A DNA stretch of 64,000 nucleotides from Myxococcota bacterium. GTDB taxonomy: Bacteria > Myxococcota_A > UBA796 > JAJRTE01 > JBJTQF01. Under the pieces are notes generated by a model that worked only from the letters and a program-made list of their open reading frames with translations, was not told where the DNA came from and ran no database searches. This document shows positions 7,036 through 56,087 of the stretch, one piece after another. The translations under genes were made by a program, and so were the position numbers. Positions within the stretch are counted from its first letter, which is position 1. Each line of letters starts with the position of its first letter. The stretch is taken from contig JBJTQF010000040.1 in the NCBI GenBank assembly GCA_046075485.1, forward strand, positions 7,144 to 71,143. The letters are read 5' to 3'.

Positions 7036-7282
7036 AAACGGCATGTAAAAGTCCTTTTAAATAGGAATGTTGCCAGGATATCTGCGCACGAAAGAAGGCG
7101 ATTTAAGCTAAAGATACCGACTCACCGGTATTAAATATCGAGTGCCATGTTCAAACTTCTTTTATAAGCCTTCGTAAAAACTTAAAATCTTGTTTGCCCA
7201 TAGAAAGAAGTCTATGCGATGCACGGACTGCTGCTTGTACGTTTCCAGTGGCAGCACCGCAGGCCACAAAGGAGCAGACAAG

Positions 7283-36999: not shown

Positions 37000-37459
37000 T
37001 GTTCTTTTGGGCTCAATTCTTTGGGGCTCAATTCTTTGGGGCTGGAGCTTCTTCGGATGCGTCGCTGCGTTCATGGGGCCTCCCGTCTTTCGGTTGTGGA
37101 TCTGCAAGGCGTGGATTTGACGCTTACTTGCATCTGGATGCAGCTTGCAGAACTTTGCAGCGGTGTCAATCAGAGAATGGTGCAGACGCATGAAGCGCAC
37201 GAGCCCAGCGGTAACGCTTCAGTGTAGATGTCATCCACCACCGAGAACAGCTCCAGGCCCCCATTTTCCCTTTACATCTCCCCCTCCTTTTCGATAACAT
37301 CTGCCCCGGTTTTGCGGATCGTAGTTTGGTTGTGTCGCCCCGCGCAGCGCCTCTCGTATGTGCTCTCCCCCTCTTCGTGCGCCCCGAAGAGTCGTCTCTG
37401 TGCCCCAGGCTCGCCCGAGTCTGAGGCACTCTCACGACTACTTTTTGAGGGTGACTGTT

Positions 37460-40400
37460 ATGGAGATCGTCTCTGAGTTTTTAACGCCCCCCACTCACGG
37501 CGCATCCGCCCAGGTCTTGGCCATCGTCGGAGTCGGTGTCTGCTCACCACTCGCGCCTTCGGCGCTCCACACCTGGCGCAGAGCCCGCGCTCAGGCCGAC
37601 GCCCGCCTCGGCTTCCACGTCCGAGCTCGGTATGCGCCGATCATCACCTGCTCGTCGAGGCACCTCCGCCAAAAGCTGGAGCAATACCCCGAGGATCTCC
37701 CCGCCCTCGAGAACCTCCTGCTCCACGCACAGCTCCTCCACCGAGTGATCGAGGAGGCGATGGGGTCTTCTCACACGCTCGCGGATGCACACACAGATGC
37801 GCACACAGATGCGCACACAGATGCGCACACAGATGCGCACACACACGAGCTCTACCTGCTCGGCACACACGCGGAAGCCGTCGAGCTCCATGAGACACTC
37901 TCCGCATTACAATCACCGCTGGCAAGCATCCGCATACGCTGCTTCTCTCCTTCTCTGGAGGGATTCTATCAAGCACTCACCCACGCCACGCAACGCATGA
38001 CGTGTACCACACGCACGCCCACCCGGATCCTCCTGGCGGGCGCATGTCTCACCACCCGCGCACCGTTCTGGAAATCACCCCTCGGATTCCAATGTCTCAA
38101 GCAGGGCTCGACACCCGGAGATGCAGCGGTGGCACTCCTGCTCGAATTGGCTCCCACTCAGACGCCTGCGCTGGCGTATCTGCGCAGCCATAGCCTTGAG
38201 TCGATGCCGCCCGCACCGTCTCCAGAGGTCATCCCCGCTTTTGAGACCCTCTTAACCCTGCTCCAGCATGGAAAGGTAAGGGATGCACCCTCCGAATGGC
38301 AACCCTGGCTTCAAAAGAAGCTCCCCCATCATGCTCAAGCCCTGCTCAAAAAAGAGCTCCGAGACACACTCCTGCTGCAATATGAGCTGCCCGGTCTGCT
38401 GAGACTTAAGGCTCAACTTCGCGCACAACAGATGCTCAAGGAGCCGATTCAAAAACTTCAGACGGTGGTGTCAGAGCTCATCGGATTGCCAGAAGAGTGC
38501 TCCTCTCTGGCACTCGCAAGCTGCCTCGCCGGACCCGTCCCCGTGACACATCACCACCCCCTCTTGAGGATGGGACGAAGCCTGCCCGCCGTCGATGCAC
38601 TGCTGCTGCTGGCGTTCTCTACTCTGGAGCTGTGCAGCGGTATCCAGTGGGAAGAAGTCTCCGATCTCAGCGCAGAAGAAGAGACGCTCCCGCCAGCGCC
38701 TCCAGCACTGCTCATGAGCATCGAACAACGACCGCTGGTGAAGTATGTGGATGCCGATGCCCTGACTCCTTCTCCACATGAAGCGGCGTTTGCAGCGATT
38801 CTCAGCGCAGGAGATGCACCGCTGAAGCAGGTCATATCTGGAGGCATCGAACGTCCCAAGTTTACTACGAACCAGCAGGCAATCTACTACAGAACATTGG
38901 ATATCACACTGCCAGAAGAACGCACGCTCTTTGTACGACTCTGCTCAGGCTCCGTGGTACACTCGCTCCGGCATCCAGGCTTTTCGATGCGGCTCCTCTA
39001 TCCCACACATTCGCAGGAGGATGTGGAGCAGACAGAGCAGCTCTGTCGGCGATATCAGCACATGCTCTCGGATCCATATGCTCTATCTGACGAGCGTTTA
39101 CAGCTCCAGCAGCAGCTTCAGGAGGCACTCAGTCGGGTGCAGCTTGAGCTGGAGACACGGCCTCCCGCTCAGATGATGCTCTCGATCTGGCTGACGGTGG
39201 CGGAGCAACAATGGTGGCGACTGGAATCCACGGAGCCAAGCCTCCATACGCTCAGCGAGCGAGGGCAGGATCAGCTTACACATCTGTCTCGGGTGATGGG
39301 CTTAAGAGCGGGTACACTCCGGCAGACAGAGCGGCTCATACAGTGGCTCAGCGGAGGCAATCCCTTTGAGACACGGGTGGCGCTTCGGGTGCTCACCCAT
39401 CACCATCGGCTGGAGATACTGCCGCAGCTCGAGCGTCTGCTCTCCAGCCCCAATCAAGGACTCCGGGAGGAGGCATTATGGGCACTCTCGTATCTGCTCC
39501 ACGATCACGGACGGCTGATTCCAGAGGCATGGGGAGAAGGAGATCGTGGAGCATGGCTTCGTGGTTTGGCGGAGCGTGTGCAGCAGGCTCAACTGGAGCT
39601 TCTCCAGCAGTGTGACTGTGATTGGACTCAGGAAGGACTGCTCTCACTGGAGAGCCGAACGTTGGCACATCTCCGGGCTGCGTTGCGCCTGCGTCCGTAT
39701 GAGGTCTTACGCTGGGCGATCCAGGTCATGGAGGGGAAGGCGGAGGCTCATGGGCTGGCACCGCTGGTCCTGGCGCTGTGTCATGCACAGACACCTCGGC
39801 TCAAGGAGTGGCTGATCAAGGGGACTCAAACGGAGACGTTTGTGAGAGGTGCGTGGTTGGGATTGGCGCTGGTGGGAAAACGAGGCTGGCTGTTGGAGGC
39901 GCTGAGGCAGGCTCAGGAATATGCAGAGAAGGGCAAGAGACGAGTGGTATATTCCGGGAGATCAGGCTGGACCTACTGGTATCTGATCAGCGGATATACT
40001 CCCGATGCAGTGGCGCGTGAAGTGCCTCTCCCGATGGAGGAGCTGCGTCATCTGCTGGAGCGTTCGCTTCAACAAGAGCAGGTCGAGGGGCAAGATGCAG
40101 CGGAGACACGCTGGAGAATGGGAACAGTATGGCATGGGCTGAGGGTGGCGAATTGTTTGCCGGAGGTCTCGGGAGGGGTTCAGGCGCTGTTTTTGCTGGA
40201 GCTGGCGCAAAAGACGGCGCAAGAGGGGGCCTATCTGTGGACGGGTGCGTTGCCAGATCTCGAAAAGCAGCGTCGATTTTATGTGCAGAGACTGCTGCCG
40301 CGTGCGTTATCGGTGGAGCATCGACTGAAGCTGTTGAAGCGGATTCAGGGGGAGTCCTCGGGGCGGCCTCGTCGAGGTGGGGAGGTGCGGGAGGTGCAGG

Positions 40401-41506
40401 GAGGGCAGGTGGTGGAGGGCATTTCGGTGGTGGGGCGAGGGCAAGGTGGGATGGTGGCGCGAGGGGTGGGTCCATACATCAACAGCAGTGGGGTGCCGGT
40501 GATGGTGCCGACGGAGGGCAAACTGTCGGGTTTGAAGGGGGGTGCGTTGTCGGTGCAGACGGGGGGGCGTCCCTGGATGTTGCAGGGGAGTCGGCTGAAG
40601 ACGGAGGGGGATGCTCTGCCGGGTCTGGTGGGTGCGCTGAGTGGGCAGACGGGGGGTGCGGTGCTGCCTGTGTTTGGAGGGTCGAGGCTGCTGGTGGAGC
40701 GGCAACTTTTCCAGCGAGACGGGGATCTGGTGTTGATGAACGGGGGGAATCACCCGGGGGTGCTGCGGTTGGGTCAAGCTTCGGGAGGAGGAGGGCTGGG
40801 ATTTTCGCAAGGTGGAGGGGAGGCGCTGTGTGAGTATTGTGGGAAGCCGCAGCATACGTTTCCGAAGGGGGGCTCATTGGTGTACAGCTCCCCGTTGCTG
40901 AGAAAGTCGCTGGGTGCGGATGAGTGGTGGATGCCGACTCCGGCGGGGGACGAGCGGGTGAATGCGCATCACCTGCTGGTGGGGGAGGTGATGCGGGCGG
41001 AGGTGGACCGACCTCGGGACTTGGAGACGTTTGGGATCAACATCAACGAGGGATGGAATGGGGTGCTGCTGCCTGCAACGTTGGTTTTGGCGTGTCATTT
41101 TCATCAGCCCTTACATCGGGGCAACCACCGTGCGGGCCAGTCATTTGAAAGCGGGCAGGGCATTCCGATGCAGAGAGAACTAGAGCTGAGGTTGAATAAG
41201 GTCTCCGAGGAGGTGCAGGCGGGGGTATACTGTACCCAACCGGAGCGCCTGAAGCAGCGGCTGGAGGCGTTGGCCCAAGAGGTGTGTGACAAGCTGGCCC
41301 GTTTTGAGTGGACGCTGACCTGGGATGGACGAGACTATCGGGAGGGAGGCCCCGGCTGTGCCGGACACCGAGGGCTGGTGGTCAAACGCAGGGCGTGTGA
41401 AGAAGCCACCCGCGAGAACCAGCCAGATCCCACTTGTCCTCATCAGCGGAAACACGTTACCATCACTCGAGCCAGACCCAGCGGTCCCTTAAAGCCGGGT
41501 CGCTGA
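37460..41506 (+). CDS. Large polymorphic-toxin-like protein with HEAT-like repeats, a Gly-rich pre-toxin region and a C-terminal AHH (HNH/EndoVII-fold) nuclease domain
   Basis: The C-terminus has NAHHLLVGEV ... NINEGWNGVLLPATL ... CHFHQPLHRGNHRAGQ, matching the AHH family signature ([AG]HH, N..LP, H.G.H). The middle has PBS-lyase HEAT-like repeats (LRVLTHHHRLEILPQLERLLSSPNQGLREEALWALSYLL). Start ATG 37460 follows GAGGG; the long ORF opens at 37358. Confidence 0.6.
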   Translation: MEIVSEFLTPPTHGASAQVLAIVGVGVCSPLAPSALHTWRRARAQADARLGFHVRARYAPIITCSSRHLRQKLEQYPEDLPALENLLLHAQLLHRVIEEAMGSSHTLADAHTDAHTDAHTDAHTDAHTHELYLLGTHAEAVELHETLSALQSPLASIRIRCFSPSLEGFYQALTHATQRMTCTTRTPTRILLAGACLTTRAPFWKSPLGFQCLKQGSTPGDAAVALLLELAPTQTPALAYLRSHSLESMPPAPSPEVIPAFETLLTLLQHGKVRDAPSEWQPWLQKKLPHHAQALLKKELRDTLLLQYELPGLLRLKAQLRAQQMLKEPIQKLQTVVSELIGLPEECSSLALASCLAGPVPVTHHHPLLRMGRSLPAVDALLLLAFSTLELCSGIQWEEVSDLSAEEETLPPAPPALLMSIEQRPLVKYVDADALTPSPHEAAFAAILSAGDAPLKQVISGGIERPKFTTNQQAIYYRTLDITLPEERTLFVRLCSGSVVHSLRHPGFSMRLLYPTHSQEDVEQTEQLCRRYQHMLSDPYALSDERLQLQQQLQEALSRVQLELETRPPAQMMLSIWLTVAEQQWWRLESTEPSLHTLSERGQDQLTHLSRVMGLRAGTLRQTERLIQWLSGGNPFETRVALRVLTHHHRLEILPQLERLLSSPNQGLREEALWALSYLLHDHGRLIPEAWGEGDRGAWLRGLAERVQQAQLELLQQCDCDWTQEGLLSLESRTLAHLRAALRLRPYEVLRWAIQVMEGKAEAHGLAPLVLALCHAQTPRLKEWLIKGTQTETFVRGAWLGLALVGKRGWLLEALRQAQEYAEKGKRRVVYSGRSGWTYWYLISGYTPDAVAREVPLPMEELRHLLERSLQQEQVEGQDAAETRWRMGTVWHGLRVANCLPEVSGGVQALFLLELAQKTAQEGAYLWTGALPDLEKQRRFYVQRLLPRALSVEHRLKLLKRIQGESSGRPRRGGEVREVQGGQVVEGISVVGRGQGGMVARGVGPYINSSGVPVMVPTEGKLSGLKGGALSVQTGGRPWMLQGSRLKTEGDALPGLVGALSGQTGGAVLPVFGGSRLLVERQLFQRDGDLVLMNGGNHPGVLRLGQASGGGGLGFSQGGGEALCEYCGKPQHTFPKGGSLVYSSPLLRKSLGADEWWMPTPAGDERVNAHHLLVGEVMRAEVDRPRDLETFGININEGWNGVLLPATLVLACHFHQPLHRGNHRAGQSFESGQGIPMQRELELRLNKVSEEVQAGVYCTQPERLKQRLEALAQEVCDKLARFEWTLTWDGRDYREGGPGCAGHRGLVVKRRACEEATRENQPDPTCPHQRKHVTITRARPSGPLKPGR
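37784..37848 (+). repeat. In-frame 12-bp microsatellite (gatgcgcacaca, about 5 copies) encoding (HTDA)5 inside the toxin gene
   Basis: Direct reading. It translates to AHTDAHTDAHTDAHTDAHTH. Confidence 0.8.
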
Positions 41507-41519
41507 GAGGAGTAGCGCC

Positions 41520-42335
41520 ATGAACGACACCTATGAGCAAGACTATTTTGTCTATTATCCACCGCCCTTCTCAGAGGCATTTCCCTACCCCCGCCTTGCG
41601 TGGGGAGAGACCAGCAGCGGGCCTTTCCACAAAGGTCGGGTGTTGGAACGTAAACAATATCCAGAGTTTGTGGAGTGGACGCGGGTCAAGAAGCCCCAAT
41701 ATCCCGAGTGTTTTAAGCTCAGCGGAACGTGGCCGGTGGTGGCGGAGCGTGTGTGGAGCGTGCTGGCGGCCCTGAATCTGTACGGGATGGACCTGCACCC
41801 AGCCCGAGTCCTGACCCGCAAGAAGGAAAACCTTCCCAACTATAAGCTCGTACATGTCTGGAATAAGTTTCTTTGTATCGACCGGGAACGCTCTCAAGCG
41901 ACTTGGGAGGAATTCCCGGAAAATCGCATCCGTGAGCCGATTTCGCTCCGGCTGGACCGGGAGGTGATGGCCGCCATTCCCCTCGAGCGGCGCCTGGTCT
42001 TTCGCCCTGAAGAAGAGAGCGTCGCCGTGGTCTTTCACCGGACGGTGGTGGAGAAGCTCATGGCGATTCGGCCCACCGGCATCATGTTTGCCCCTTTTGC
42101 GACCGCCAATTATCGCTGGCTCTACCAAGTCTTCGAGACACCCTTTCCACCGGTGGTGCCAGAAAAGCCGTCGCTGCTGCGAAAGCCTCCGACCCTGGCC
42201 AATCAGTTTGCGGCGCGAAAGCTGGAGGTCAAACCGAGCCGTCCGAAGATCGAGCGTCCGCCCCGCATCGAAACCAAAGAGCTGTTTGCTCAGATGAAAG
42301 CGGAGTCCGCCCGGCGTCGAGCTGGGAAAGAGTAA
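41520..42335 (+). CDS. Candidate cognate immunity protein for the upstream AHH toxin
   Basis: It starts 14 nt after the toxin stop on the same strand. It has no signal peptide and is Trp/Tyr/Pro-rich (YEQDYFVYYPPPFSEAFPYPRLAW...). I cannot assign a family by eye. Confidence 0.4.
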   Translation: MNDTYEQDYFVYYPPPFSEAFPYPRLAWGETSSGPFHKGRVLERKQYPEFVEWTRVKKPQYPECFKLSGTWPVVAERVWSVLAALNLYGMDLHPARVLTRKKENLPNYKLVHVWNKFLCIDRERSQATWEEFPENRIREPISLRLDREVMAAIPLERRLVFRPEEESVAVVFHRTVVEKLMAIRPTGIMFAPFATANYRWLYQVFETPFPPVVPEKPSLLRKPPTLANQFAARKLEVKPSRPKIERPPRIETKELFAQMKAESARRRAGKE

Positions 42336-48995: not shown

Positions 48996-49616
48996 TCAGC
49001 TTTCCGAGGGGGAGGGCACGAGAAAACCGGTGGGACCGCCAAGCTGGTCGAGGGCTTCTAATACTTCGGTGAGGGGGAGGCCGACCACGTTGGTATAGGA
49101 GCCTTCAATCCGACGAACCAAAAACGCGCCGATGCCCTGGATGCCATAACCTCCGGCTTTGTCGAAGGGCTCACCGGTGAGCACATAACCGTGGAGCTCG
49201 CGTAGGCTGAGGCGTTTGAAGGTGACGTGTGTGATCACCCGCTGCTCGATGCGGTGCTCGTGGGTGTGTGCGGGGGGGCCGGTGCGCAGGAGCACGAAGG
49301 CGGTGATCACCTGATGGGTGCGGTCGCTGAGGCGCTCGAGCATCTGTCGGGCGTCTTCGGGGGTGCTGGGTTTGCCGAGGGCGAGTCCTTCGAGGACCAC
49401 TTCGGTGTCCGCGGCGAGCACGATCCGTCCGGGGGGGAGGCGGGCGGCGACGGCTTCGGCTTTGAGGCGTGCGTTGTAGAGGCTGACGAGCTCGGCGGAG
49501 ACCTCTTGGTGGCCGGTTTCTTCGACATCGGCGGTGCAGACTTCCAGCGGGATGCCCAGGCGAGAGAGCATTTCTCGCCGTCGAGGGGAGGCGGAAGCGA
49601 GGACGAGGGGTAACAT
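48996..49616 (-). CDS. maf: Maf-like nucleoside-triphosphate pyrophosphatase
   Basis: MLPLVLASASPRRREMLSRLGIPLEV...ADTEVVLEG...GKPST fits the Maf/YhdE family. Confidence 0.8.
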   Translation of the reverse strand: MLPLVLASASPRRREMLSRLGIPLEVCTADVEETGHQEVSAELVSLYNARLKAEAVAARLPPGRIVLAADTEVVLEGLALGKPSTPEDARQMLERLSDRTHQVITAFVLLRTGPPAHTHEHRIEQRVITHVTFKRLSLRELHGYVLTGEPFDKAGGYGIQGIGAFLVRRIEGSYTNVVGLPLTEVLEALDQLGGPTGFLVPSPSES

Positions 49617-49691
49617 GTTTCCTCCGAGGGGTGAAGCGCGGCTGCGAGGGGCTGGGCAGGCCGGACAAACGATGGTGACGGCGTGGGATGG
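49562..49691. repeat. Left copy of a 130-bp imperfect direct repeat (about 95% identity to 54041..54170); covers the maf 5' end and its upstream region
   Basis: Aligned by eye with 6 mismatches. It contains the maf start (ATGTTACCCCTCGTC on the minus strand). Confidence 0.75.
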
Positions 49692-49792
49692 TTTAGCATA
49701 GGAAAGCGGGCTCGGCTAGGAAAGAGGGCACGGCTAGACTCTGTTTCTCTAGGGAAGAGAGGGGGGCGGGCATGGACTTAATGTTTCAGCAC

Positions 49793-49869
49793 GGACATAA
49801 GTCAAAGTTGACTTATGTGGACATCTCGTATATTCATTGGACATAAGTCAAAGTTGACTTATGTGGACA
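49793..49869. promoter_or_regulatory. Two copies of a 31-bp site ggacataagtcaa-ag-ttgacttatgtggaca (each a palindrome with 11-bp arms), 46 bp apart and overlapping -35/-10-like hexamers
   Basis: Direct reading. TTGACT ... TATATT and TTGACT ... TCATAT hexamer pairs overlap the sites. A third weaker inverted repeat (tagtca-N6-tgacta) follows. Confidence 0.55.
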
Positions 49870-49922
49870 ATTTAGTCATATTACTGACTATTATGTAGAG
49901 CGTATGCTCGACCGGGAGGGAT

Positions 49923-51080
49923 ATGCAGGTCAATCCAGGTGGAATACTTGCCTTAGAGGATGTTCTAGGACGTGATGAGGTGATTGCGCAGCTTTGAAGA
50001 ATCCTCGAGCGACAGTCGGTCCTCTTGACCGCCGAGCGGCGTATGGGTAAGACCAGCGTCATCCGCAAGATGTGCAGTGAGAGCAAGCGTGGATTTCTGA
50101 AGTATCGAGATCTGGAAGGCATTCACACCCCACTGGAGTTTGCGGAGCTGGTCTTGAGTGATGCGCGTGAGGCTTTCACACAAGGGCAAAAGGTGAGCAC
50201 ATTCTTCAAGTCGCTCATCAAGGATCTGGGCGGGGTTGAGGTCGGCGGTCTGATAAAATTTCCAGATGGCAAGCCTCCCTCTTGGAAACAGGTTCTACAA
50301 GAGACACTTCAGGCAATGGTAAGGGCGCAGGAATCAAAGCTCGTAATCTTTTTCTGGGATGAGCTTCCACTGATGCTGCACAACATCGTAAAGCGTGAGG
50401 GTGAAGAGATCGGGATGAGCCTGCTGGATCTGTTGCGGGGCCTTCGTCAAGAGCTTCCGACACTTCGGATGGTCTATACCGGCTCGATTGGACTGCATAA
50501 TGTGCTGAGGTCGCTCAAGCGACAGGGATACGCCAATGCGCCTGTCAACGATATGTACATGTTTCCGTTGCCACACTTCAGCCAGGAACATGCACAAGAG
50601 CTCGCCAGTAAGCTGCTCCAGGCAGAGAAACTCCCGCATCACCTAGAACTTCAACACGCATTGGCGTTGGCTGCCGATCATATCCCCTATTACATTCATC
50701 ATTTGGTAGACCAGCTTCGTCTGCAACGAGATCCCATCACCCCGGAGCTGGTTCAAAAGAGGGTCACGGCCCTGATTCGGTCGCCACAGGATCCCTGGCA
50801 GCTCAAACACTATGTGGAGCGAATTGGCACCTACTACACAGAGACGGAGCAGCAACAGATCTTTGTAATCCTCGACCGCCTCTGTGTGACTTCCAAGGGG
50901 ATGACAACCTCGCAGCTCCGAAAACACCTCGACAAGTCCAGGTGGCCCTCGTCTCCAGCGGGCCTGGCGGAGCTCCTGCAACAACTGGAGCTGGATCACT
51001 ACCTGCGGCCCGTTGATGAGGCTTATGAGCTCAACAACACCATTCTAAAGCAGGGCTGGAGATACCACCGAGGTCTTTAA
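49923..51080 (+). CDS. AAA+ ATPase with C-terminal wHTH (archaeal-ATPase/DUF234-like), interrupted by an in-frame TGA at 49995-49997; possibly a pseudogene or recoded
   Basis: GGGAGGGAT precedes ATG 49923. Translation across the TGA gives LALEDVLGRDEVIAQL-stop-RILERQSVLLTAERRMGKTSVIRKM, matching the F.GRe.EL..L......l.ltG.RR.GKTsL motif. Walker B is KLVIFFWDE. The ORF track only reports 50025..51080 (TTG start). Confidence 0.55.
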
Positions 51081-51108
51081 CCGTCCCCCCCTCTTCTGGA
51101 GCAAGCAG

Positions 51109-54042
51109 ATGCAGATGTTGTCGCCTGAGCTGTCTTACTTTACGCCGAGCATGATGAAACCCGCGCTCTTGGAAGCTGTTTTTGTTAAACGCGCCCCGAT
51201 GCTTGAGCACCTGCTGACGCAAGTACACCAAGGGCTGATGGGTGGGAGTCTCCCCCAGGTCTTGTTGATGGGGCCACGCGGGATGGGCAAGACCCATCTG
51301 ATCAGCTTGCTCTACCATCGAGCAGCCGCCCTCCCCGACGTGCAGGAGCGCGCCTGTATCGCATGGCTCAAAGAAGAAGAATGGAGTGTGGATTCGTGGC
51401 TGGAGCTGCTTCGGGTCATCTTACAAGCCCTGTTGCAGCGAGACCCCCTTGCCAAAGCCTCCGGTGTGTCGCTCAAGGACCAGCTTGCCACCCTCCATCA
51501 TGCGGGAAGTATCGAGGAGGCAACCCGACGTGTTGAGCAGCTTCTGCTGAGCTATTTAGCCGGTCGGCGGATGTTGCTGTTGATGGAAAATCTTGATCAG
51601 ATCTTTGAAGGTCTCCAAGAGGAAGGTCAGCGACGTTGGCGTGCTTTCCTTCAGACCCATGCCAATACCTGCATTGTGGCGACCAGCCAAAGTCTCTTTG
51701 CAGGCATTACCGCACATTCGCAACCTTTCTACGGCTTCTTTCGGCAGGAGCACCTCGAGTCCTTTACCCTCGACGATGCGTGCCAGATGTTGGCAGGGGT
51801 CGCACGGGCGCGCCAGGATGAGCCACTGGCCTGCATTATTGAGCAACCCGAGGGTCGTGCTCGGGTGCGGGCCGTCGGTCATTTTGCCGGGGGGAATCCC
51901 CGTGTATATATGATCCTCTCTCAGTTTTTGACCCGTGAAAACCTAGATGAGCTGGTTCAGCCCTTCATGCGCATGCTCAACGAGCTGACGCCCTATTACC
52001 AGAGCCGGATGCAGACCCTCAGTCCTCAGCAGCGGAAGCTGGTGGAGTACTTGTGCCTAGAGCGAAAGCCGATCTCGGTCAAGGAGATGTCACAAAAGAC
52101 CTTTATCAAGCCGCAGACGGTCAGCTCCCAGCTCCGTCGATTGGAAGAGCTGGGATATGTGGTGGGACGAGAAGCAGGTCGTGAGACCCTCTACGAGCTA
52201 CGGGAACCGCTGATGCGTCTGACCATCGAGGTCAAACTCAACCGGGGCGAGGGAATTCCCATCTTTTTGGACTTCCTGCGGCTTTGGTATCCCCAACAGG
52301 AGCTGAAGCGCCAGCTCGACCGGCTGCCAGCCTTTGGCCTAAGCTGCACAGAGGAACGACGCCACCTTCGGATGGCCCTAGAGCTCACGGAGCAGGCTGG
52401 GGATGATCCTCGGGTCGCTGCATGCCTCCAAGATCTGAAGCAGTATGTACAGCAAGAAAACTGGGCTGATACGCTCAAGGTCACAGAGGAGCTGGTCGCG
52501 TTGAGAGGCAAAGGAGAGGACTATCTGGCTCGTGCCCAAGCCAAGTATGAACTGGATGATGTTTCTGGAGCCACGATGGACCTGGAGGAAGCCCTGAATC
52601 GCGAGCTGTCCCCGCAAGCGAAATGGGAGGCAAAAATGGAGCTGGCGTTCTGCTACTGGCTGGAGGGTGAAAACACCAAGGCCCTCGAACAGCTCCAACG
52701 TATGTCCAAAAAGGTACAGAAAAACGATAACTGGCAGCTCTTGATGATGCGTCTTCAGCTTGAGGAGGGCAACATCTCCACGGGGATGGCGCTGTTCCAG
52801 CAGCTCTTGGAAAAAACAGAGCGAGACTCCTCACGGCTGGAGAACCTCTTGTCTTGGGGCGATCCACGACAATTTGTCAGCTCTCTGACCAAGCTCAACT
52901 CCTTGTGGCTGATCTCCTGTATCAAAGAGGGTCTCTCCTACCTCGAGCTGTATTTGCAGGGGCTCCAGCTCAAGGCACAGCGCGAAGAAACGTTTGAGAA
53001 CGATGAGCTTGAACTCTTTTTTCTATTGTCCATTGTCCTGAGCACTCAGCCAGATGTCTTAGCAGAGCGATGGCGTTTCTGTGACGCCTCCATTCAGCGA
53101 CAAACAGAACATAGCAACGCATTGAGTTATCGGCTCATCACACAGTTTTACCTGGAGAAGTCTGAGAGGCTACCTCTAGGGCTGCTGCTTCACCATCAAG
53201 ACTTGTTCTGGCTGGAAATACTGAGGGGAGTGGTCGAAATCTGGAAACGGGCGCTCCAAGACCCTCGCCTTAATCTCTGGCTGCTCTTGGTGGAGTCTTA
53301 CACCAGTCTCGTAAGTAACATCACAAACATCATGAAGGAAGAAGCGGAACGAGCTCAAGACCCAACGCAGACTCCCACAGAAGAAGGGGCATCTCCAGCC
53401 GCGAGCCCATTTTTTTCGCCCTCCAGCCATGAGAAGCTGCATGAGGTTTTACAACAGGCTCAAGTCTTGACGGGACTTCCCTTTTCAGAGCTGATCTACA
53501 ATATCGCTCAGATGCTCTTATCAGAGGAGCTCTTTAAAGGTCGCCCTCAGCTTCTGGTGGCGTTACTCGTCTTGCGTTATGTGAACCTGGAGGACACCCA
53601 TCGACGCGATCTTCAGGCGCAGCTCATCGAAAAAAGCCAGACGCCAGAGCTACGAAGTATTCTCTCTATCGGGATCGTATTCTTCCATGAGCCTCGGCTG
53701 GCAAATACCTCTGAAGAGCAAACGCCGGAGCTCACGTCTCCCGCTGCTTCGGCATCACTTGGTGAAGTAGATAAAACCTCCCACACAGAGTCCCTCGAAG
53801 CAGCTCTCTCAGACCTGTTCCACCAGATGAAGGGCCATGTTACCCCGGAAGACTGGCGGAGCTTTTGGACTCCAGCCTTCGACAGCCTTCCCGAGCTGGC
53901 CACCTTCTTTCGTATTCTGGAGGTCGCCGAAGCCTACCGGCAAAAGCCTGAACGACGCATCTTACTCACCCTCCCCCTAGAGGAACGCATGATCGTGGCG
54001 GAGTACCTTAAACTTACGCATGAACAAGCAGCCATCGATTGA
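51109..54042 (+). CDS. STAND-like P-loop NTPase with wHTH and a long C-terminal TPR/helical-repeat region; paralogous to the upstream ATPase
   Basis: GGAG lies 7 nt upstream of ATG. FVKRAPMLEHLLTQV...VLLMGPRGMGKTHLISLL is the Walker A region and RMLLLMENLDQIF is Walker B. The wHTH is QQRKLVEYLCLERKPISVKEMSQKTFIKPQTVSSQLRRLEELGYV. About 550 aa of TPR-like repeats follow. Confidence 0.65.
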   Translation: MQMLSPELSYFTPSMMKPALLEAVFVKRAPMLEHLLTQVHQGLMGGSLPQVLLMGPRGMGKTHLISLLYHRAAALPDVQERACIAWLKEEEWSVDSWLELLRVILQALLQRDPLAKASGVSLKDQLATLHHAGSIEEATRRVEQLLLSYLAGRRMLLLMENLDQIFEGLQEEGQRRWRAFLQTHANTCIVATSQSLFAGITAHSQPFYGFFRQEHLESFTLDDACQMLAGVARARQDEPLACIIEQPEGRARVRAVGHFAGGNPRVYMILSQFLTRENLDELVQPFMRMLNELTPYYQSRMQTLSPQQRKLVEYLCLERKPISVKEMSQKTFIKPQTVSSQLRRLEELGYVVGREAGRETLYELREPLMRLTIEVKLNRGEGIPIFLDFLRLWYPQQELKRQLDRLPAFGLSCTEERRHLRMALELTEQAGDDPRVAACLQDLKQYVQQENWADTLKVTEELVALRGKGEDYLARAQAKYELDDVSGATMDLEEALNRELSPQAKWEAKMELAFCYWLEGENTKALEQLQRMSKKVQKNDNWQLLMMRLQLEEGNISTGMALFQQLLEKTERDSSRLENLLSWGDPRQFVSSLTKLNSLWLISCIKEGLSYLELYLQGLQLKAQREETFENDELELFFLLSIVLSTQPDVLAERWRFCDASIQRQTEHSNALSYRLITQFYLEKSERLPLGLLLHHQDLFWLEILRGVVEIWKRALQDPRLNLWLLLVESYTSLVSNITNIMKEEAERAQDPTQTPTEEGASPAASPFFSPSSHEKLHEVLQQAQVLTGLPFSELIYNIAQMLLSEELFKGRPQLLVALLVLRYVNLEDTHRRDLQAQLIEKSQTPELRSILSIGIVFFHEPRLANTSEEQTPELTSPAASASLGEVDKTSHTESLEAALSDLFHQMKGHVTPEDWRSFWTPAFDSLPELATFFRILEVAEAYRQKPERRILLTLPLEERMIVAEYLKLTHEQAAID

Positions 54043-54170
54043 GAGAGCATCTGTCACCGTCGAGGGGATGCGGAAGCGAGGACGAGGGGTAACATGTTTC
54101 CTCCGAGGGGTGAAGAGCGGCTGCGAGGGGCTGTGCAGGCCGGACAAACGATGGTGACGGCGTGGGATGG
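54041..54170. repeat. Right copy of the 130-bp direct repeat; contains a degenerate maf 5' fragment
   Basis: See the left copy. It begins at the stop codon of the 51109..54042 gene. Confidence 0.75.
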
Positions 54171-54478
54171 CCATCAAGGTTTCGATCTCTTTGTCGATGG
54201 TAAGGTGCTGGTAGAAGTGAAGGTCTCAAAATCGTACAACGTTCAGGATGAGGCACAGCTTCTGACGGGAGAGAGTCCCGGTTTTGGACAAGGCTCAGGA
54301 GCTGTTGCCCCCGCTCACCCTCTGCTGAGCCGGATGTTTCGTGAGCCCAAGCCGTCTCTGCTCCGCACACCGCATCAGACTGGCCATCAGCATGCCGAGC
54401 GCCACAAAAACCGCATCACTGGCGTGAGAAAATGTACCGTATTGCCACAAGGTGGGATACAGGCAGGTGCCTCAAGCT

Positions 54479-55105
54479 CTAAAAGCTGCGGCCATAACCA
54501 AACGAACCATAGACGTAAGGAGTGGCGTAGGTGGAAGGAACATTTGAGAGCAAACCATTGAAGGATGAAAAAAAGTCAGCCCCACTCTCAAAATATAAGG
54601 TGGAAGGTCCGTTCTGCCAAGCCAATCCCAGCGGCACACGCATGTAGCCCGTCGCGGCAAACTGAGCCGCCGGTGCCGTATAGAGCCAAAGCGACGGCTT
54701 CAACGCCACCGCCGCCGGGAGACTCAGCCGCCCATAGGCATAACCCCCTTGAAGCTCCAAGCCCATTCGGAATTTGGACTGCTCCAGAAAAGTATACTGA
54801 AGACCAACACCCGCCCCTATAAGGCTGCTCAAACCCATAAACGTGGACACCTGAACATTCAACTTCGGTGTGATCGAGCGAATATACCAAAGCTGCGCAT
54901 TCGGAGAGACTGGCATATTGGCTTCAAAATAGTTGGGATACCCTCCGGTGACAAAGCCTCCCAGCATGTTTTTGTGACCCTCCATCATCGGAAGTGGAGG
55001 GTTCATCATGGCGGCTGGCGCACAGGCGGAGAACATAATAGAAGCCAACACGCTCGTGATGAGTTTACGGGGCAAAACCTGAACACTGCATGAAGCACTC
55101 GTCAT
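54479..55105 (-). CDS. Outer-membrane beta-barrel protein (OmpA/OmpW-like small barrel), hypothetical
   Basis: The signal peptide is MTSASCSVQVLPRKLITSVLASIMFSACAPAA. Alternating aromatic/Gly beta-strand patterns end in a C-terminal ..YGRSF (terminal Phe). Confidence 0.5.
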   Translation of the reverse strand: MTSASCSVQVLPRKLITSVLASIMFSACAPAAMMNPPLPMMEGHKNMLGGFVTGGYPNYFEANMPVSPNAQLWYIRSITPKLNVQVSTFMGLSSLIGAGVGLQYTFLEQSKFRMGLELQGGYAYGRLSLPAAVALKPSLWLYTAPAAQFAATGYMRVPLGLAWQNGPSTLYFESGADFFSSFNGLLSNVPSTYATPYVYGSFGYGRSF

Positions 55106-55649
55106 ATTCTCCTGGAAGCTGAAGGCTGGATGCGCAGCCGTTTCTCTGCGACAGACTGAGCATATCACATCATTCAGTAACTAAAAACTTGTTTTCAATG
55201 TATCATAACTATCCATGTTTTTCATACACGTACACGCAGGCAGCGCACCTGTTCGATACAAAAAGCCCACCCATCCTGGAGACTCTGTCCGCATGAATAG
55301 AGACGCTTTCCGCGTGAATGGCCTTCTTGCCGCTTACGTGTGGTTGCACATGCGCTCCTCTCCGCATCCGCAGCTCCCATGCGAGGCCGTCAGGCTCCTT
55401 TTTTGCTCGAATGTGGTTAAGGGCCTCTAAGGATCGCAGCAGGAGGTGCCGCTCATGGTCGTCGTCCAGCAGAGCATTTCTGAGCCTCGCCGAGCCGGAG
55501 TACCCCGATAAAAGACCCACTCCATCGAATGTGATGCCGTGCTCATGATCATTCTGCTCGACACACCCGATGTCCTTCAGAGAAGGTACTCAGCATGGCA
55601 ATGGTGCCGTGTGTATGTCAAATGCCCCTCGCGTATATAGGAGGTCAAT

Positions 55650-55721
55650 ATGATTCAGGTGACGGTCCTTGTTGAAGTCGAGATGCGGGGCGCAGGTTCT
55701 CAGGTCGTGGGCTCTTTCTGA
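55650..55721 (+). CDS. 23-aa small ORF MIQVTVLVEVEMRGAGSQVVGSF with a near-perfect SD, in a low-GC intergenic islet
   Basis: TATATAGGAGGTCAAT precedes the ATG. No homolog is assignable and it may be non-functional. Confidence 0.2.
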   Translation: MIQVTVLVEVEMRGAGSQVVGSF

Positions 55722-56087
55722 GCCACGGACTGCTGCTGAGCTTCAGCACAGCCATCCAGGTATCGTGACGCCGTCACGGTCCATGTTGAGCAGCGTATGA
55801 TCGTTGCTTGAGGCTGTCGTTGAAGTCCTTCCTGACGCTTCCTGCCCCCGATGTCTCGTAATTTCCCGTATTTATTTTCTTTTGTTCAAAGTTTGGGCGC
55901 TTAGAATGCCTTGACTTCCCCAAGTGCGCGTGTACACAAACGCTCGAGAAGTGTCAACTTCTGGCATGTGTGTCACGCCATACAACAGACTTCTGACAAA
56001 GCAAAAGATAACGTATACCTCCATACTCTCTGCTCTCATGGGGTGATGTGTCACGAGATTCCATCACTCGCGAAGCCCATAGACGTA

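What the first reader, a model, noticed from the sequence alone, without database searches (positions are those of the whole stretch)
49562..54170. Recombinase-less 4.35-kb cassette inserted at the 5' end of maf, bounded by 130-bp direct repeats, carrying a two-ATPase module behind paired palindromic operators
Positions 49562-49691 and 54041-54170 are 130-bp direct repeats with 6 mismatches. The left copy is the true start of maf. The right copy keeps a decayed maf start (MLPLVLASASPRR-stop). This is the att-like signature of a site-specific insertion into a gene 5' end. Between the repeats are two 31-bp palindromic sites overlapping sigma-70-like hexamers, an AAA+ ATPase-wHTH gene, and a paralogous 977-aa P-loop NTPase-wHTH-TPR (STAND-like) gene. 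There is no integrase or transposase. ATPase + wHTH + TPR sensor architectures recur in antiviral STAND (Avs-like) and other defence systems, so this may be a defence or regulatory cassette mobilised in trans. I cannot match the gene pair to a named system.
Basis: partly seen in the sequence, partly recalled or inferred. Interest (0 to 1): 0.8.

Follow-up and report, generated by a model that had tools for sequence, protein, structure and literature searches.

The report
Decaying two-ATPase operon beside maf
The segment is one damaged copy of a widespread but unnamed two-gene operon with its own conserved DNA control sites, and the 130-base repeats around it look like a scar of recombination, not the footprint of an integrase.

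Summary
There are 130-nt direct repeats (6 mismatches), an intact maf, a decayed maf start in the right copy, two identical 31-nt palindromic sites, two P-loop ATPase genes and no recombinase.

Corrections:
- Gene 1 really starts at 49923 and carries an in-frame TGA in place of an invariant Trp, so it is probably dead.
- The right repeat abuts a 5'-truncated PDDEXK_3 gene fragment.

The cassette belongs to a conserved family. A ~385-aa NOD-only ATPase (Arch_ATPase fold) sits directly upstream of a NOD-wHTH-TPR protein in all but one of the loci with room downstream. An 18-nt palindromic operator array (TACGTYAA-WW-TTGACGTA) precedes 63 of 67 distinct promoters.

The integrase-type reading is not supported:
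- The closest relatives (~93% nt) are colinear across the left repeat and keep one operator plus a 42-nt gene-1 remnant.
- The two repeat copies are much closer to each other than to those relatives.
- A second, unrelated locus has the same module bracketed by a 401-nt repeat of a different gene.

This fits one homologous plus one illegitimate join.

A defence role is unproven. PADLOC gives nothing and the neighbours show no defence-island signal. The only hint is a rare TIR fusion.

The parts
48996..49616 (-). maf (Maf-family nucleotide pyrophosphatase), intact. Its first 55 nt lie inside the left repeat.
   Evidence: Pfam Maf 1.7e-60 over profile 1-186/187, TIGR00172 4.7e-46. A 96%-identical orthologue, P0121, sits in the same maf / acyl-CoA dehydrogenase / P-type ATPase synteny.
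49562..49691 (.). Left copy of the 130-nt repeat: 55 nt of maf coding sequence plus 75 nt upstream. Both of its borders are continuous sequence in the closest relatives.
49692..49792 (.). Spacer between the left repeat and the first operator. It is colinear with relatives L086-L091 apart from a 30-nt indel.
   Evidence: Alignment A4. 87 matches, 13 mismatches and 32 gap columns over 49692-49823.
49793..49823 (.). Operator site 1 (31 nt; 24-nt palindrome ACATAAGTCAA-AG-TTGACTTATGT at 49795-49818).
   Evidence: The same site is kept in relatives L086-L091. The family consensus is TACGTYAA-WW-TTGACGTA.
49839..49869 (.). Operator site 2, identical to site 1 (palindrome 49841-49864). It overlaps a -35-like TTGACT.
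49854..49882 (+). Sigma-70-like promoter match TTGACT-17-CATATT in front of gene 1.
   Evidence: This is a consensus match only: 1 found against 2.1 expected in shuffles.
49923..51080 (+). Gene 1: small NOD-only P-loop ATPase (385 codons; NBD, helical domain, winged helix). It is interrupted by an in-frame TGA at 49995-49997, so it is a probable pseudogene.
51109..54042 (+). Gene 2: large NOD-wHTH-TPR protein, 977 aa, full length. Its stop codon TGA (54040-54042) straddles the junction with the right repeat.
54041..54170 (.). Right copy of the 130-nt repeat. It holds a decayed maf start (13 codons then TGA, - strand, 54054-54095). Neither of its borders could be matched in any relative.
54171..54280 (+). 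5'-truncated fragment of a PDDEXK_3 (GxxExxY) gene, starting at the repeat border.
   Evidence: PF13366 positions 63-91 of 117, E 0.0025. Sequence read.
54479..55168 (-). 229-aa ORF with no Pfam match, which I read as outer-membrane beta-barrel-like. It is part of the roughly 5.6-kb stretch absent from the 80% relative.
   Evidence: The beta-barrel reading is my own reading of the sequence (C-terminal Phe, alternating pattern).

Best explanation
What it is (shown). Positions 49692-54040 hold one copy of a widespread, self-contained two-gene operon. The operon consists of:
- an array of 18-24-nt palindromic operators over the promoter;
- a roughly 385-aa NOD-only P-loop ATPase with the fold of archaeal Arch_ATPase and close to NB-ARC;
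- a tightly coupled larger protein made of a related NOD, a MarR/Csa3-type winged helix, a peptide-binding-type TPR array and a conserved C-terminal helical end.

How it works (inferred).
- The winged helix of the large protein, possibly together with that of the small one, binds the operators as dimers or higher oligomers and autoregulates the operon.
- The TPR array senses a ligand.
- ATP-dependent co-assembly of the two NODs, like a sensor and a helper, then changes the output.
- In the common form the output is unknown. In a rare form it is a TIR domain fused to the small ATPase.

History at this locus (part shown, part inferred).
- The module sat next to maf before this lineage split from its closest sampled relatives.
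- It is decaying in both lineages. Here gene 1 has a nonsense codon. In the relatives all is deleted but one operator and 42 nt of gene 1.
- The 130-nt repeat is not an att site. It is a younger recombination scar.
- Most likely a fragment carrying the maf 5' region plus the module integrated by one homologous crossover in the maf region and one illegitimate join (gene-2 end to repeat start). This is Campbell-type integration of a circularised fragment, or homology-facilitated illegitimate recombination.
For: Module conservation:
- The large-protein N-domain starts 0-380 nt after the small gene in every metagenome locus with at least 255 nt of room downstream, except L140. The same holds in L001, L096, L097 and L099.
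- An operator motif lies within 130 nt of the start in 63 of 67 distinct promoters. Neighbouring sites are 16 nt apart in 49 of 59 pairs.
- With a looser count, 72 of 77 upstream regions match, against 13 of 252 control segments.
- The window itself has only the two sites in 64 kb.

Folds:
- The two NODs align colinearly by hhalign, E 2.9e-4.
- The TIR_2 fusion scores E 3e-22 and has the usual large partner downstream.

Family size: 830 representatives at E<=1e-30.

History:
- The relatives are colinear across 49691|49692 and keep an operator and a gene-1 remnant.
- L-R differ at 6/130 positions, against 19-21 plus an indel to the relatives.
- The TGA replaces an invariant Trp.
- A second module, L152, is bracketed by a 401-nt repeat. 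Its distal copy runs to its own stop codon and then into different DNA.
- 0 of 217 control segments have such repeats.
- I saw no recombinase in or near either case, from the ORF lists and the ORFs scanned.
Against: - No binding, ATPase or phenotype data exist. Which protein binds the operators is inferred only from domain similarity.
- The sensor-helper idea rests on analogy and on a single TIR-fused variant.
- The Campbell-type route needs the right-hand neighbour (the truncated PDDEXK_3 fragment) to be the recipient's native maf-upstream sequence. That implies an earlier deletion there.
- A purely local duplication explains this window about as economically.
- Gene conversion between the copies could mimic a young duplication.
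- Only 2 of 26 modules show bracketing repeats.
- The sequence is from a metagenome-assembled genome, and neither the junctions nor the TGA could be checked against reads.
Confidence: 0.5

Rival explanations
1. Local secondary duplication. During a deletion or repair event downstream of gene 2, a 130-nt patch was copied from the nearby maf 5' region. It was pasted between the end of gene 2 and the middle of a PDDEXK_3 gene. This has nothing to do with how the module arrived.
For: - Both borders of the left copy are native in the relatives. Neither border of the right copy could be matched in any relative.
- The right border cuts a PDDEXK_3 gene at profile position 63.
- The L-R divergence (6/130) is far below the divergence from the relatives, so the copy is young and derived from this lineage's own sequence.
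Against: - It needs two illegitimate junctions in one event.
- It does not explain why an unrelated module (L152) is bracketed in the same way by 401 nt of another gene. There the distal copy runs to a natural stop codon and then into different downstream DNA, as expected for an original gene end.
- Such flanking repeats were absent from 217 control segments.
Confidence: 0.22
2. The cassette is a recombinase-less integrative element (CIME-like). Its 130-nt repeats are attL and attR of a site-specific integrase encoded elsewhere, which mobilises it in trans into the 5' end of maf.
For: - Direct repeats bracket exactly the two-gene unit, and the left copy keeps maf intact.
- The module is scattered among unrelated contexts and phyla.
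- A relative at 80% identity lacks the whole region.
- GC is slightly lower than the surroundings, 0.54 against 0.59.
Against: - I saw no integrase in the window's island or in L152 among the ORFs listed and scanned.
- The two bracketed cases use different genes, different gene ends and different lengths (130 and 401 nt), so there is no common att.
- 23 other loci have no repeats.
- The closest relatives carry a remnant at the same junction, not an empty site, and the repeat is younger than that shared ancestry.
- The family is absent from IMG/VR, from phage records and, apart from two remote 22-25% matches, from plasmid records.
- Only 2 of 131 neighbouring ORFs are integrases.
Confidence: 0.08
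3. Assembly artefact. The right repeat, or the adjacency of the module to it, is a chimeric join made while assembling a mixed-strain metagenome. The TGA in gene 1 is a consensus error.
For: - The sequence matches an NCBI metagenome-assembled Myxococcota genome (P0001).
- Related strains with different content at this site co-exist in public samples.
- Neither right-copy border could be matched in any other sequence I could find.
Against: - The copies differ at 6 positions. From the mismatch positions I count a longest identical run of about 46 nt, so the copies would be separate nodes at the usual final k-mer sizes.
- The right copy has its own substitutions, one of which makes a stop codon. 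That looks like real decay.
- An independent assembly from another project (L152) shows the same kind of structure.
Confidence: 0.08
4. Rival on function. The pair is an ordinary signal-responsive STAND-type transcription regulator, like MalT or LAL/AfsR regulators. It has a housekeeping or developmental role and is not a conflict or defence system.
For: - A genuine DNA-binding-type wHTH is present (MarR_2, HTH_24, ArsR; Csa3-type in 35 of 36 members).
- The operator arrays are strongly conserved.
- Neither protein has an enzymatic effector.
- The neighbours are mostly metabolic genes and few match PADLOC.
- There is no PADLOC system match.
Against: - The only operators found lie at the module's own promoter, so no regulon is visible.
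- There is no conserved third gene.
- Distribution across phyla is patchy, with repeated decay here, in relatives L086-L091 and in Woronichinia L098.
- A TIR fusion exists.
- The neighbour sample was small and had no matched control.
Confidence: 0.35

Closest known systems
Antiviral STAND NTPases (Avs/AVAST, bNACHT) and the wider catalogue of prokaryotic STAND clades (Lee et al. 2026, PMC13581612)
   Same: Both have a P-loop NOD followed by a winged helix and a long TPR-type helical sensor. Distribution is patchy. A TIR domain appears in one variant. According to that paper, defence and non-defence STAND clades are interspersed and most sensors are TPR-like.
   Different: - The large protein has no N-terminal effector.
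- The system has two genes, with a second NOD-only ATPase.
- It carries its own conserved operator array.
- There is no PADLOC match and no defence-island signal in the sampled neighbourhoods.
- Whether the large protein falls in one of the 589 published clades was not checked.
STAND-type transcription regulators (MalT, LAL and AfsR families)
   Different: - The DNA-binding domain here is a MarR/Csa3-type winged helix between the NOD and the TPR. It is not a C-terminal LuxR-type or N-terminal SARP domain.
- There is an obligatory second ATPase.
- Only self-regulation is visible.
Archaeal Arch_ATPase family (PF01637; PABY2304 2qen, SSO1545 2fna)
   Different: - Sequence identity is only 17%.
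- The Pfam model PF01637 did not appear among the matches for the small ATPase (only AAA_16 and AAA_22 did).
- The N-terminal NPGG motif and the pairing with a TPR protein are specific to this family.
- To my knowledge the function of the archaeal proteins is itself unknown.
Sensor-helper NLR pairs (plant sensor/NRC helpers, NAIP-NLRC4)
   Same: Two related NOD proteins work together. One carries the repeat sensor. The other is a shorter executor that carries the output domain in some variants (here TIR).
   Different: This is an analogy only. No interaction or co-assembly has been shown here. In the usual form the small partner has no executor domain.
Campbell-type (single-crossover) integration and homology-facilitated illegitimate recombination; CIMEs as the integrase-dependent alternative
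   Same: An inserted segment is bracketed by direct repeats of the adjacent host gene end. The proximal copy keeps the gene intact, and the segment carries no recombinase.
   Different: - Unlike CIMEs, there is no common att sequence and no integrase remnant.
- No circular intermediate or donor sequence has been observed here.

Membership tests
Avs / antiviral STAND | STAND-type NTPase module (P-loop NBD, helical domain, winged helix) | tested here: met
Avs / antiviral STAND | Fused effector domain (nuclease, protease, TIR, SIR2 and others), usually N-terminal | tested here: not met
   Pfam finds no enzymatic domain and the model is all-helical after the NOD. Only the rare variant P0317 has TIR, and it is on the small ATPase.
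Avs / antiviral STAND | C-terminal repeat sensor (TPR-like) | tested here: met
Avs / antiviral STAND | Match to curated defence-system models, or enrichment next to defence genes | tested here: not met
   In PADLOC only the wHTH matches (Csa3/CasR), plus a marginal PDC-S27 hit. Among 131 neighbouring ORFs there are 151 Pfam families, mostly metabolic, and a handful of PADLOC hits. There was no matched control.
Avs / antiviral STAND | Protection against phage on expression | not testable with these tools
   This needs an experiment.
STAND transcription regulators (MalT / LAL / AfsR) | NOD plus helical sensor plus a DNA-binding domain of LuxR or SARP type | tested here: not met
   The DNA-binding domain is MarR/ArsR/Csa3-type wHTH at residues 306-364. 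No LuxR (GerE) or SARP (Trans_reg_C/BTAD) match passed the threshold.
STAND transcription regulators (MalT / LAL / AfsR) | Repeated binding sites in target promoters | tested here: inconclusive
   Conserved palindrome arrays were found, but only at the module's own promoter. Binding was not tested.
Arch_ATPase (PF01637) | Fold: NBD, helical domain and C-terminal winged helix in about 350-400 aa | tested here: met
Arch_ATPase (PF01637) | Significant match to the Pfam model | tested here: not met
   For the small ATPase only AAA_16 (0.0037) and AAA_22 (6.7e-06 to 8.3e-08) appear. A few large-protein homologues carry precomputed PF01637 hits.
Integrase-dependent integrative element / CIME | Direct repeats (attL/attR) bracketing the element at a gene end | tested here: met
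   130-nt repeats, with the left one completing maf.
Integrase-dependent integrative element / CIME | Integrase present, or the same att sequence shared by independent copies | tested here: not met
   No integrase was seen among the ORFs listed and scanned. The only other bracketed copy uses 401 nt of a methylmalonyl-CoA mutase 3' end. 23 loci have no repeats.
Integrase-dependent integrative element / CIME | Empty site with a single repeat copy in close relatives | tested here: not met
   The closest relatives (L086-L091) carry one operator and a gene-1 remnant at the same junction. The 80% relative is too diverged upstream of maf to compare.
Transposon / insertion sequence | Transposase, terminal inverted repeats, short target-site duplication | tested here: not met
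   No transposase ORF was seen. No terminal inverted repeats lie at 49692/54040 among the inverted pairs listed. The duplication is 130 nt.

The most novel reading that the evidence does not exclude
The two-ATPase operon is a new kind of STAND system, a TPR sensor NOD plus a NOD-only helper, that acts on DNA through its winged helices and operator-like palindromes. It also spreads between related genomes as a discrete 4.2-4.4-kb unit without any dedicated recombinase. It does so by circularising together with a piece of the neighbouring gene and re-entering by homologous recombination, possibly helped by its own ORC/TnsC-like ATPases. That would explain why exactly this unit is bracketed by long host-gene repeats in two unrelated genomes.
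Probability: 0.12. Interest if true: 0.8.

Novelty: new variant of a known kind. Interest (0 to 1): 0.45.

Why it matters
The specific copy in this window is a decaying one, so it is of limited interest in itself. It does point to a well-defined and widespread family of about 830 clusters at 50% identity. These occur in cyanobacteria, Myxococcota, Acidobacteriota, Bacteroidota and other phyla.

I could find no name, Pfam family or defence-database entry for this family. Its features are:
- two co-translated NOD ATPases, one with a TPR sensor;
- a conserved, 16-nt-periodic palindromic operator array.

If it proves to be an immune or conflict system, it would be a bacterial counterpart of sensor-helper NLR pairs, with built-in transcriptional control. 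If it is a regulator, it would be a new architecture of STAND transcription factor.

The bracketing by long host-gene repeats in two independent genomes also gives a concrete case for studying how small gene modules move between close relatives without a recombinase.

Tried and rejected
- Exact look-ups of maf and gene 2 in the assembly index found nothing.
- The single genome-contig scan with maf gave only relatives at 53% identity or less, so no empty site came from there. Relatives were reached instead through the protein search and the contig look-ups.
- The profile of the small ATPase found no relative among solved structures beyond P-loop matches to Clp proteins.
- Rfam found nothing in 48.5-56.9 kb.
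- Viral contigs, phage records and plasmid records gave no true family member.
- Four literature searches or reads found no description of this gene pair.
- I first read the 370-aa gene upstream of maf in L092 as the window's ABC ATPase. It is RsgA and has no counterpart in the window.
- GC content and GC3 are only mildly lower in the cassette and do not mark its borders.
- I dropped tandem duplication followed by precise deletion, because it needs more steps. It also does not fit L152, where the distal copy ends at a natural stop codon.
- I considered reading the TGA as recoding and rejected it, because all homologues have Trp there.

Full report
**1. Observation**

- The 130-nt direct repeat (49562-49691 and 54041-54170) is 124/130 identical.
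- No third copy exists in the window.
- None of 217 random 4-kb segments from other loci and from this window has a flanking direct repeat of 100 nt or more.
- maf (48996-49616, minus strand) is complete: Pfam Maf 1.7e-60, profile 1-186/187.
- The right copy reads MLPLVLASASPRR-stop on the minus strand.
- Two identical 31-nt sites (49793-49823 and 49839-49869) each hold a 24-nt palindrome, ACATAAGTCAA-AG-TTGACTTATGT. They are the only matches in 64 kb.
- A TTGACT-17-CATATT promoter-like match overlaps the second site.
- Gene 2 (51109-54042, 977 aa) has AAA_16, a MarR_2/HTH_24 winged helix and TPR.
- I saw no integrase or transposase ORF between the repeats or out to about 56.8 kb.

**2. Corrections to the observation**

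- Gene 1 begins at ATG 49923, not at the TTG of the 351-aa ORF. It has an in-frame TGA at 49995-49997.
- The closest homologue with known context has Trp at that codon (DLWRILE; 50% identity over 385 aa). That Trp is invariant in 41 aligned family members.
- The public record of this genome, a metagenome-assembled Myxococcota bacterium, annotates only a 345-aa remainder that starts inside the P-loop (P0241). So gene 1 is probably inactive, unless the TGA is a consensus error.
- The two ATPases are only remotely related. BLASTP is not significant. hhalign gives E 2.9e-4 and probability 40%, but the alignment is colinear from the P-loop to the winged helix.
- Directly after the right repeat lies a 5'-truncated fragment of a PDDEXK_3/GxxExxY gene (PF13366 positions 63-91, E 0.0025).

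**3. The cassette is a member of a conserved two-gene family**

- The large protein has more than 1,200 homologues, annotated only as 'tetratricopeptide repeat protein' or 'AAA family ATPase'. They come from cyanobacteria, Armatimonadota, Nitrosomonas, Acidobacteriota and others.
- The small protein family has 830 representatives at E<=1e-30 among 1.84 billion cluster representatives. Their lengths are strikingly uniform, about 385-400 aa.
- I fetched 80 metagenome loci through the small ATPase. The N-domain of the large protein starts 0-380 nt downstream in every locus with at least 255 nt of room except one. Most gaps are under 35 nt.
- The same order holds in L001, L096, L097 and L099.
- Upstream, 63 of 67 distinct promoters carry at least one 18-nt palindrome, TACGTYAA-WW-TTGACGTA, within 130 nt of the start. 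43 promoters carry two to four.
- Neighbouring sites are 16 nt apart in 49 of 59 pairs. With a looser count, 72 of 77 upstream regions match, against 13 of 252 control segments.
- The flanking genes differ from locus to locus. Among 131 ORFs there are 151 Pfam families, mostly metabolic, and none recurs in more than 5. Few ORFs match PADLOC models.
- The family is absent from IMG/VR contigs and phage records. Plasmids hold only two remote 22-25% matches.

**4. Structures**

- The model of the large protein (pLDDT 70.5) has the following parts:
  - a similar module at residues 1-380, with the winged helix at 306-364;
  - a low-confidence helical stretch;
  - a C-terminal helical end conserved in all 36 homologues. 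This shows that gene 2 is full length.
- The winged helix of the large protein matches the DNA-binding winged helix of Csa3 in 35 of 36 members. It also matches ArsR/MarR models. That speaks for real DNA binding.
- Neither protein has an enzymatic effector.
- One variant of the small ATPase (P0317) carries a C-terminal TIR_2 domain (E 3e-22). The usual large partner follows it.

**5. History at this locus**

The protein search with maf found a 96%-identical Maf on six contigs from six sequencing runs (L086-L091). It also found a 79%-identical one on four contigs (L092-L095).

The 96% group:
- It is about 93% identical in nucleotides through the P-type ATPase, acyl-CoA dehydrogenase and maf genes.
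- It then runs colinear with the window through the whole left repeat and across its border (49691|49692). It continues into a single operator, GGACATAAGTCAAGGTTGACTTATGTGGACA.
- 25 nt further on lies a 42-nt stretch identical to window 50962-51003, the 3' part of gene 1. After that comes unrelated DNA with a 348-aa gene on the other strand.
- These relatives are therefore not empty sites. They hold a heavily deleted remnant of the same module at the same junction, so the module was beside maf in the common ancestor.

The 79% group:
- It shares nothing with the window upstream of the maf ATG, apart from a roughly 360-nt element that lies at 55552-55915 in the window.
- About 5.6 kb, holding the module, the right repeat, the PDDEXK_3 fragment and a 229-aa ORF, is therefore variable.

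**6. Age and nature of the repeat**

- The two copies differ at 6 of 130 positions. The left copy differs from the relatives at 21 positions plus a 6-nt indel, and the right copy at 19 plus the indel.
- In the 75 non-coding bases the contrast is 2 against 14-16.
- At four of the six L/R differences the right copy keeps the relatives' base. At the other two the left copy does.
- The duplication is therefore much younger than the split from those relatives, while the module's presence is older. Gene conversion between the copies is the only way round this.
- Both borders of the left copy are ordinary continuous sequence in the relatives. Neither border of the right copy could be matched in any relative. 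One border joins the last base before gene 2's stop codon to maf codon 18. The other joins position -75 of maf to the middle of a PDDEXK_3 gene.

**7. A second bracketed module**

- I tested 24 other loci with both flanks. 23 have no flanking repeat.
- L152, from another project and another organism, has a 401-nt, 99% repeat bracketing exactly the module.
- Its proximal copy is the 3' end of an intact methylmalonyl-CoA mutase gene (profile 3-512/512). TAG and the operators follow it.
- Its distal copy lies 58 nt after gene 2. It runs to its own TGA and then into different DNA.
- This is what one expects if a fragment made of a host-gene end plus the module entered a genome lacking the module, by one homologous crossover and one illegitimate join.
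- The two cases share no target gene, gene end or repeat length. Neither has a recombinase that I could see. That argues against a fixed att site and an integrase acting in trans.
- By analogy, the window's right repeat with its PDDEXK_3 neighbour may be the recipient's original maf-upstream sequence. The left repeat plus module would then be the incoming DNA from a conspecific strain that still had the module beside maf.
- A purely local copy-and-paste during a deletion remains a good alternative for this window. An assembly chimera cannot be excluded without reads. However, from the mismatch positions I count only about 46 nt of uninterrupted identity between the copies.

**8. How it probably works**

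Shown:
- a conserved operator array over a promoter;
- two tightly coupled NOD ATPases;
- a DNA-binding-type winged helix and a peptide-binding-type TPR array in the large protein;
- no effector, except a rare TIR fusion on the small protein.

Inferred:
- The large protein, alone or with the small one, occupies the palindromes and autoregulates the operon.
- Ligand binding to the TPR array and ATP-dependent co-assembly of the two NODs switch the system.
- The small NOD acts as the oligomerising partner. TIR domains depend on such oligomerisation, which is why that fusion is informative.

Whether the output is transcriptional only or an abortive or defence response is open. In my judgement the regulator reading (about 0.35) and a conflict-system reading are of similar weight.

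**9. Comparison with known systems**

- The module works like a STAND system. However, it fails the membership tests for Avs: no fused effector, no curated model match, and no defence-island signal in a small uncontrolled sample.
- It also fails for MalT/LAL/AfsR regulators, because the DNA-binding domain is of a different type and there is an obligatory second ATPase.
- The small protein has the Arch_ATPase fold but does not match PF01637.
- The bracketing repeats resemble Campbell-type integration, not CIMEs or transposons.

I found no name for the pair in Pfam, NCBIfam, PADLOC or the papers searched. The recent catalogue of 589 STAND clades (PMC13581612) may well include the large protein's clade, but that was not checked.

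**10. Verdict**

- The insertion-by-integrase reading is not supported, and the defence reading is unproven.
- The cassette is a decaying copy of an uncharacterised but widespread autoregulated two-NOD operon.
- The 130-nt repeat is most likely a recombination scar.
- Interest is moderate. This copy itself is ordinary decay. The family, and the recurrent bracketing by host-gene repeats, deserve a proper survey and an experiment.

Noticed in passing
window 55552-55915: This stretch of about 360 nt is 68% identical to L092 1276-1638, although everything else upstream of maf differs between the two genomes. It holds a short ORF preceded by a Shine-Dalgarno sequence (MIQVTVLVEVEMRGAGSQVVGSF; in L092 MMQVMFLVDVEVLGAGSQDVAAR). 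There is no Rfam match.
   Followed up: partly
L152 2058-2458 and 6640-7040: A 401-nt, 99% direct repeat of the 3' end of a methylmalonyl-CoA mutase gene brackets another copy of the same two-gene module. The proximal copy ends with TAG and the distal with TGA.
   Followed up: partly
L099 534-2177 (P0317), also L100 and L101: This variant of the small ATPase has a C-terminal TIR_2 domain (E 3e-22). An 830-aa TPR protein follows it, which is the usual large partner by position; it was not scanned on its own.
   Followed up: partly
L098 7613-7888 (Woronichinia naegeliana CP073041): Here the large protein is present, but the small ATPase is reduced to a 91-aa ORF that starts like the family's N-terminus (MVRVNLGGQL...). 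This is another apparently decayed copy.
   Followed up: no
Upstream regions of L102-L181, L001, L096, L099: Operator palindromes often come in arrays of two to four sites exactly 16 nt apart, overlapping by their terminal TA. In the window and in its closest homologue L001 the spacing is 45-46 nt instead.
   Followed up: partly
L152 about 7090-7240: A nearly perfect inverted repeat of about 45 nt per arm lies downstream of the distal mutase-3' copy.
   Followed up: no
window 37358-41506 and 41520-42335: A 1382-aa ORF with a fivefold HTDA repeat near its N-terminus is followed by a 271-aa ORF. Neither was analysed.
   Followed up: no
P0413 (932 aa): One family member has the small-ATPase domain at residues 548-931, behind a 547-aa N-terminal extension with no Pfam match. 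It may be a fusion or a gene-calling artefact.
   Followed up: partly
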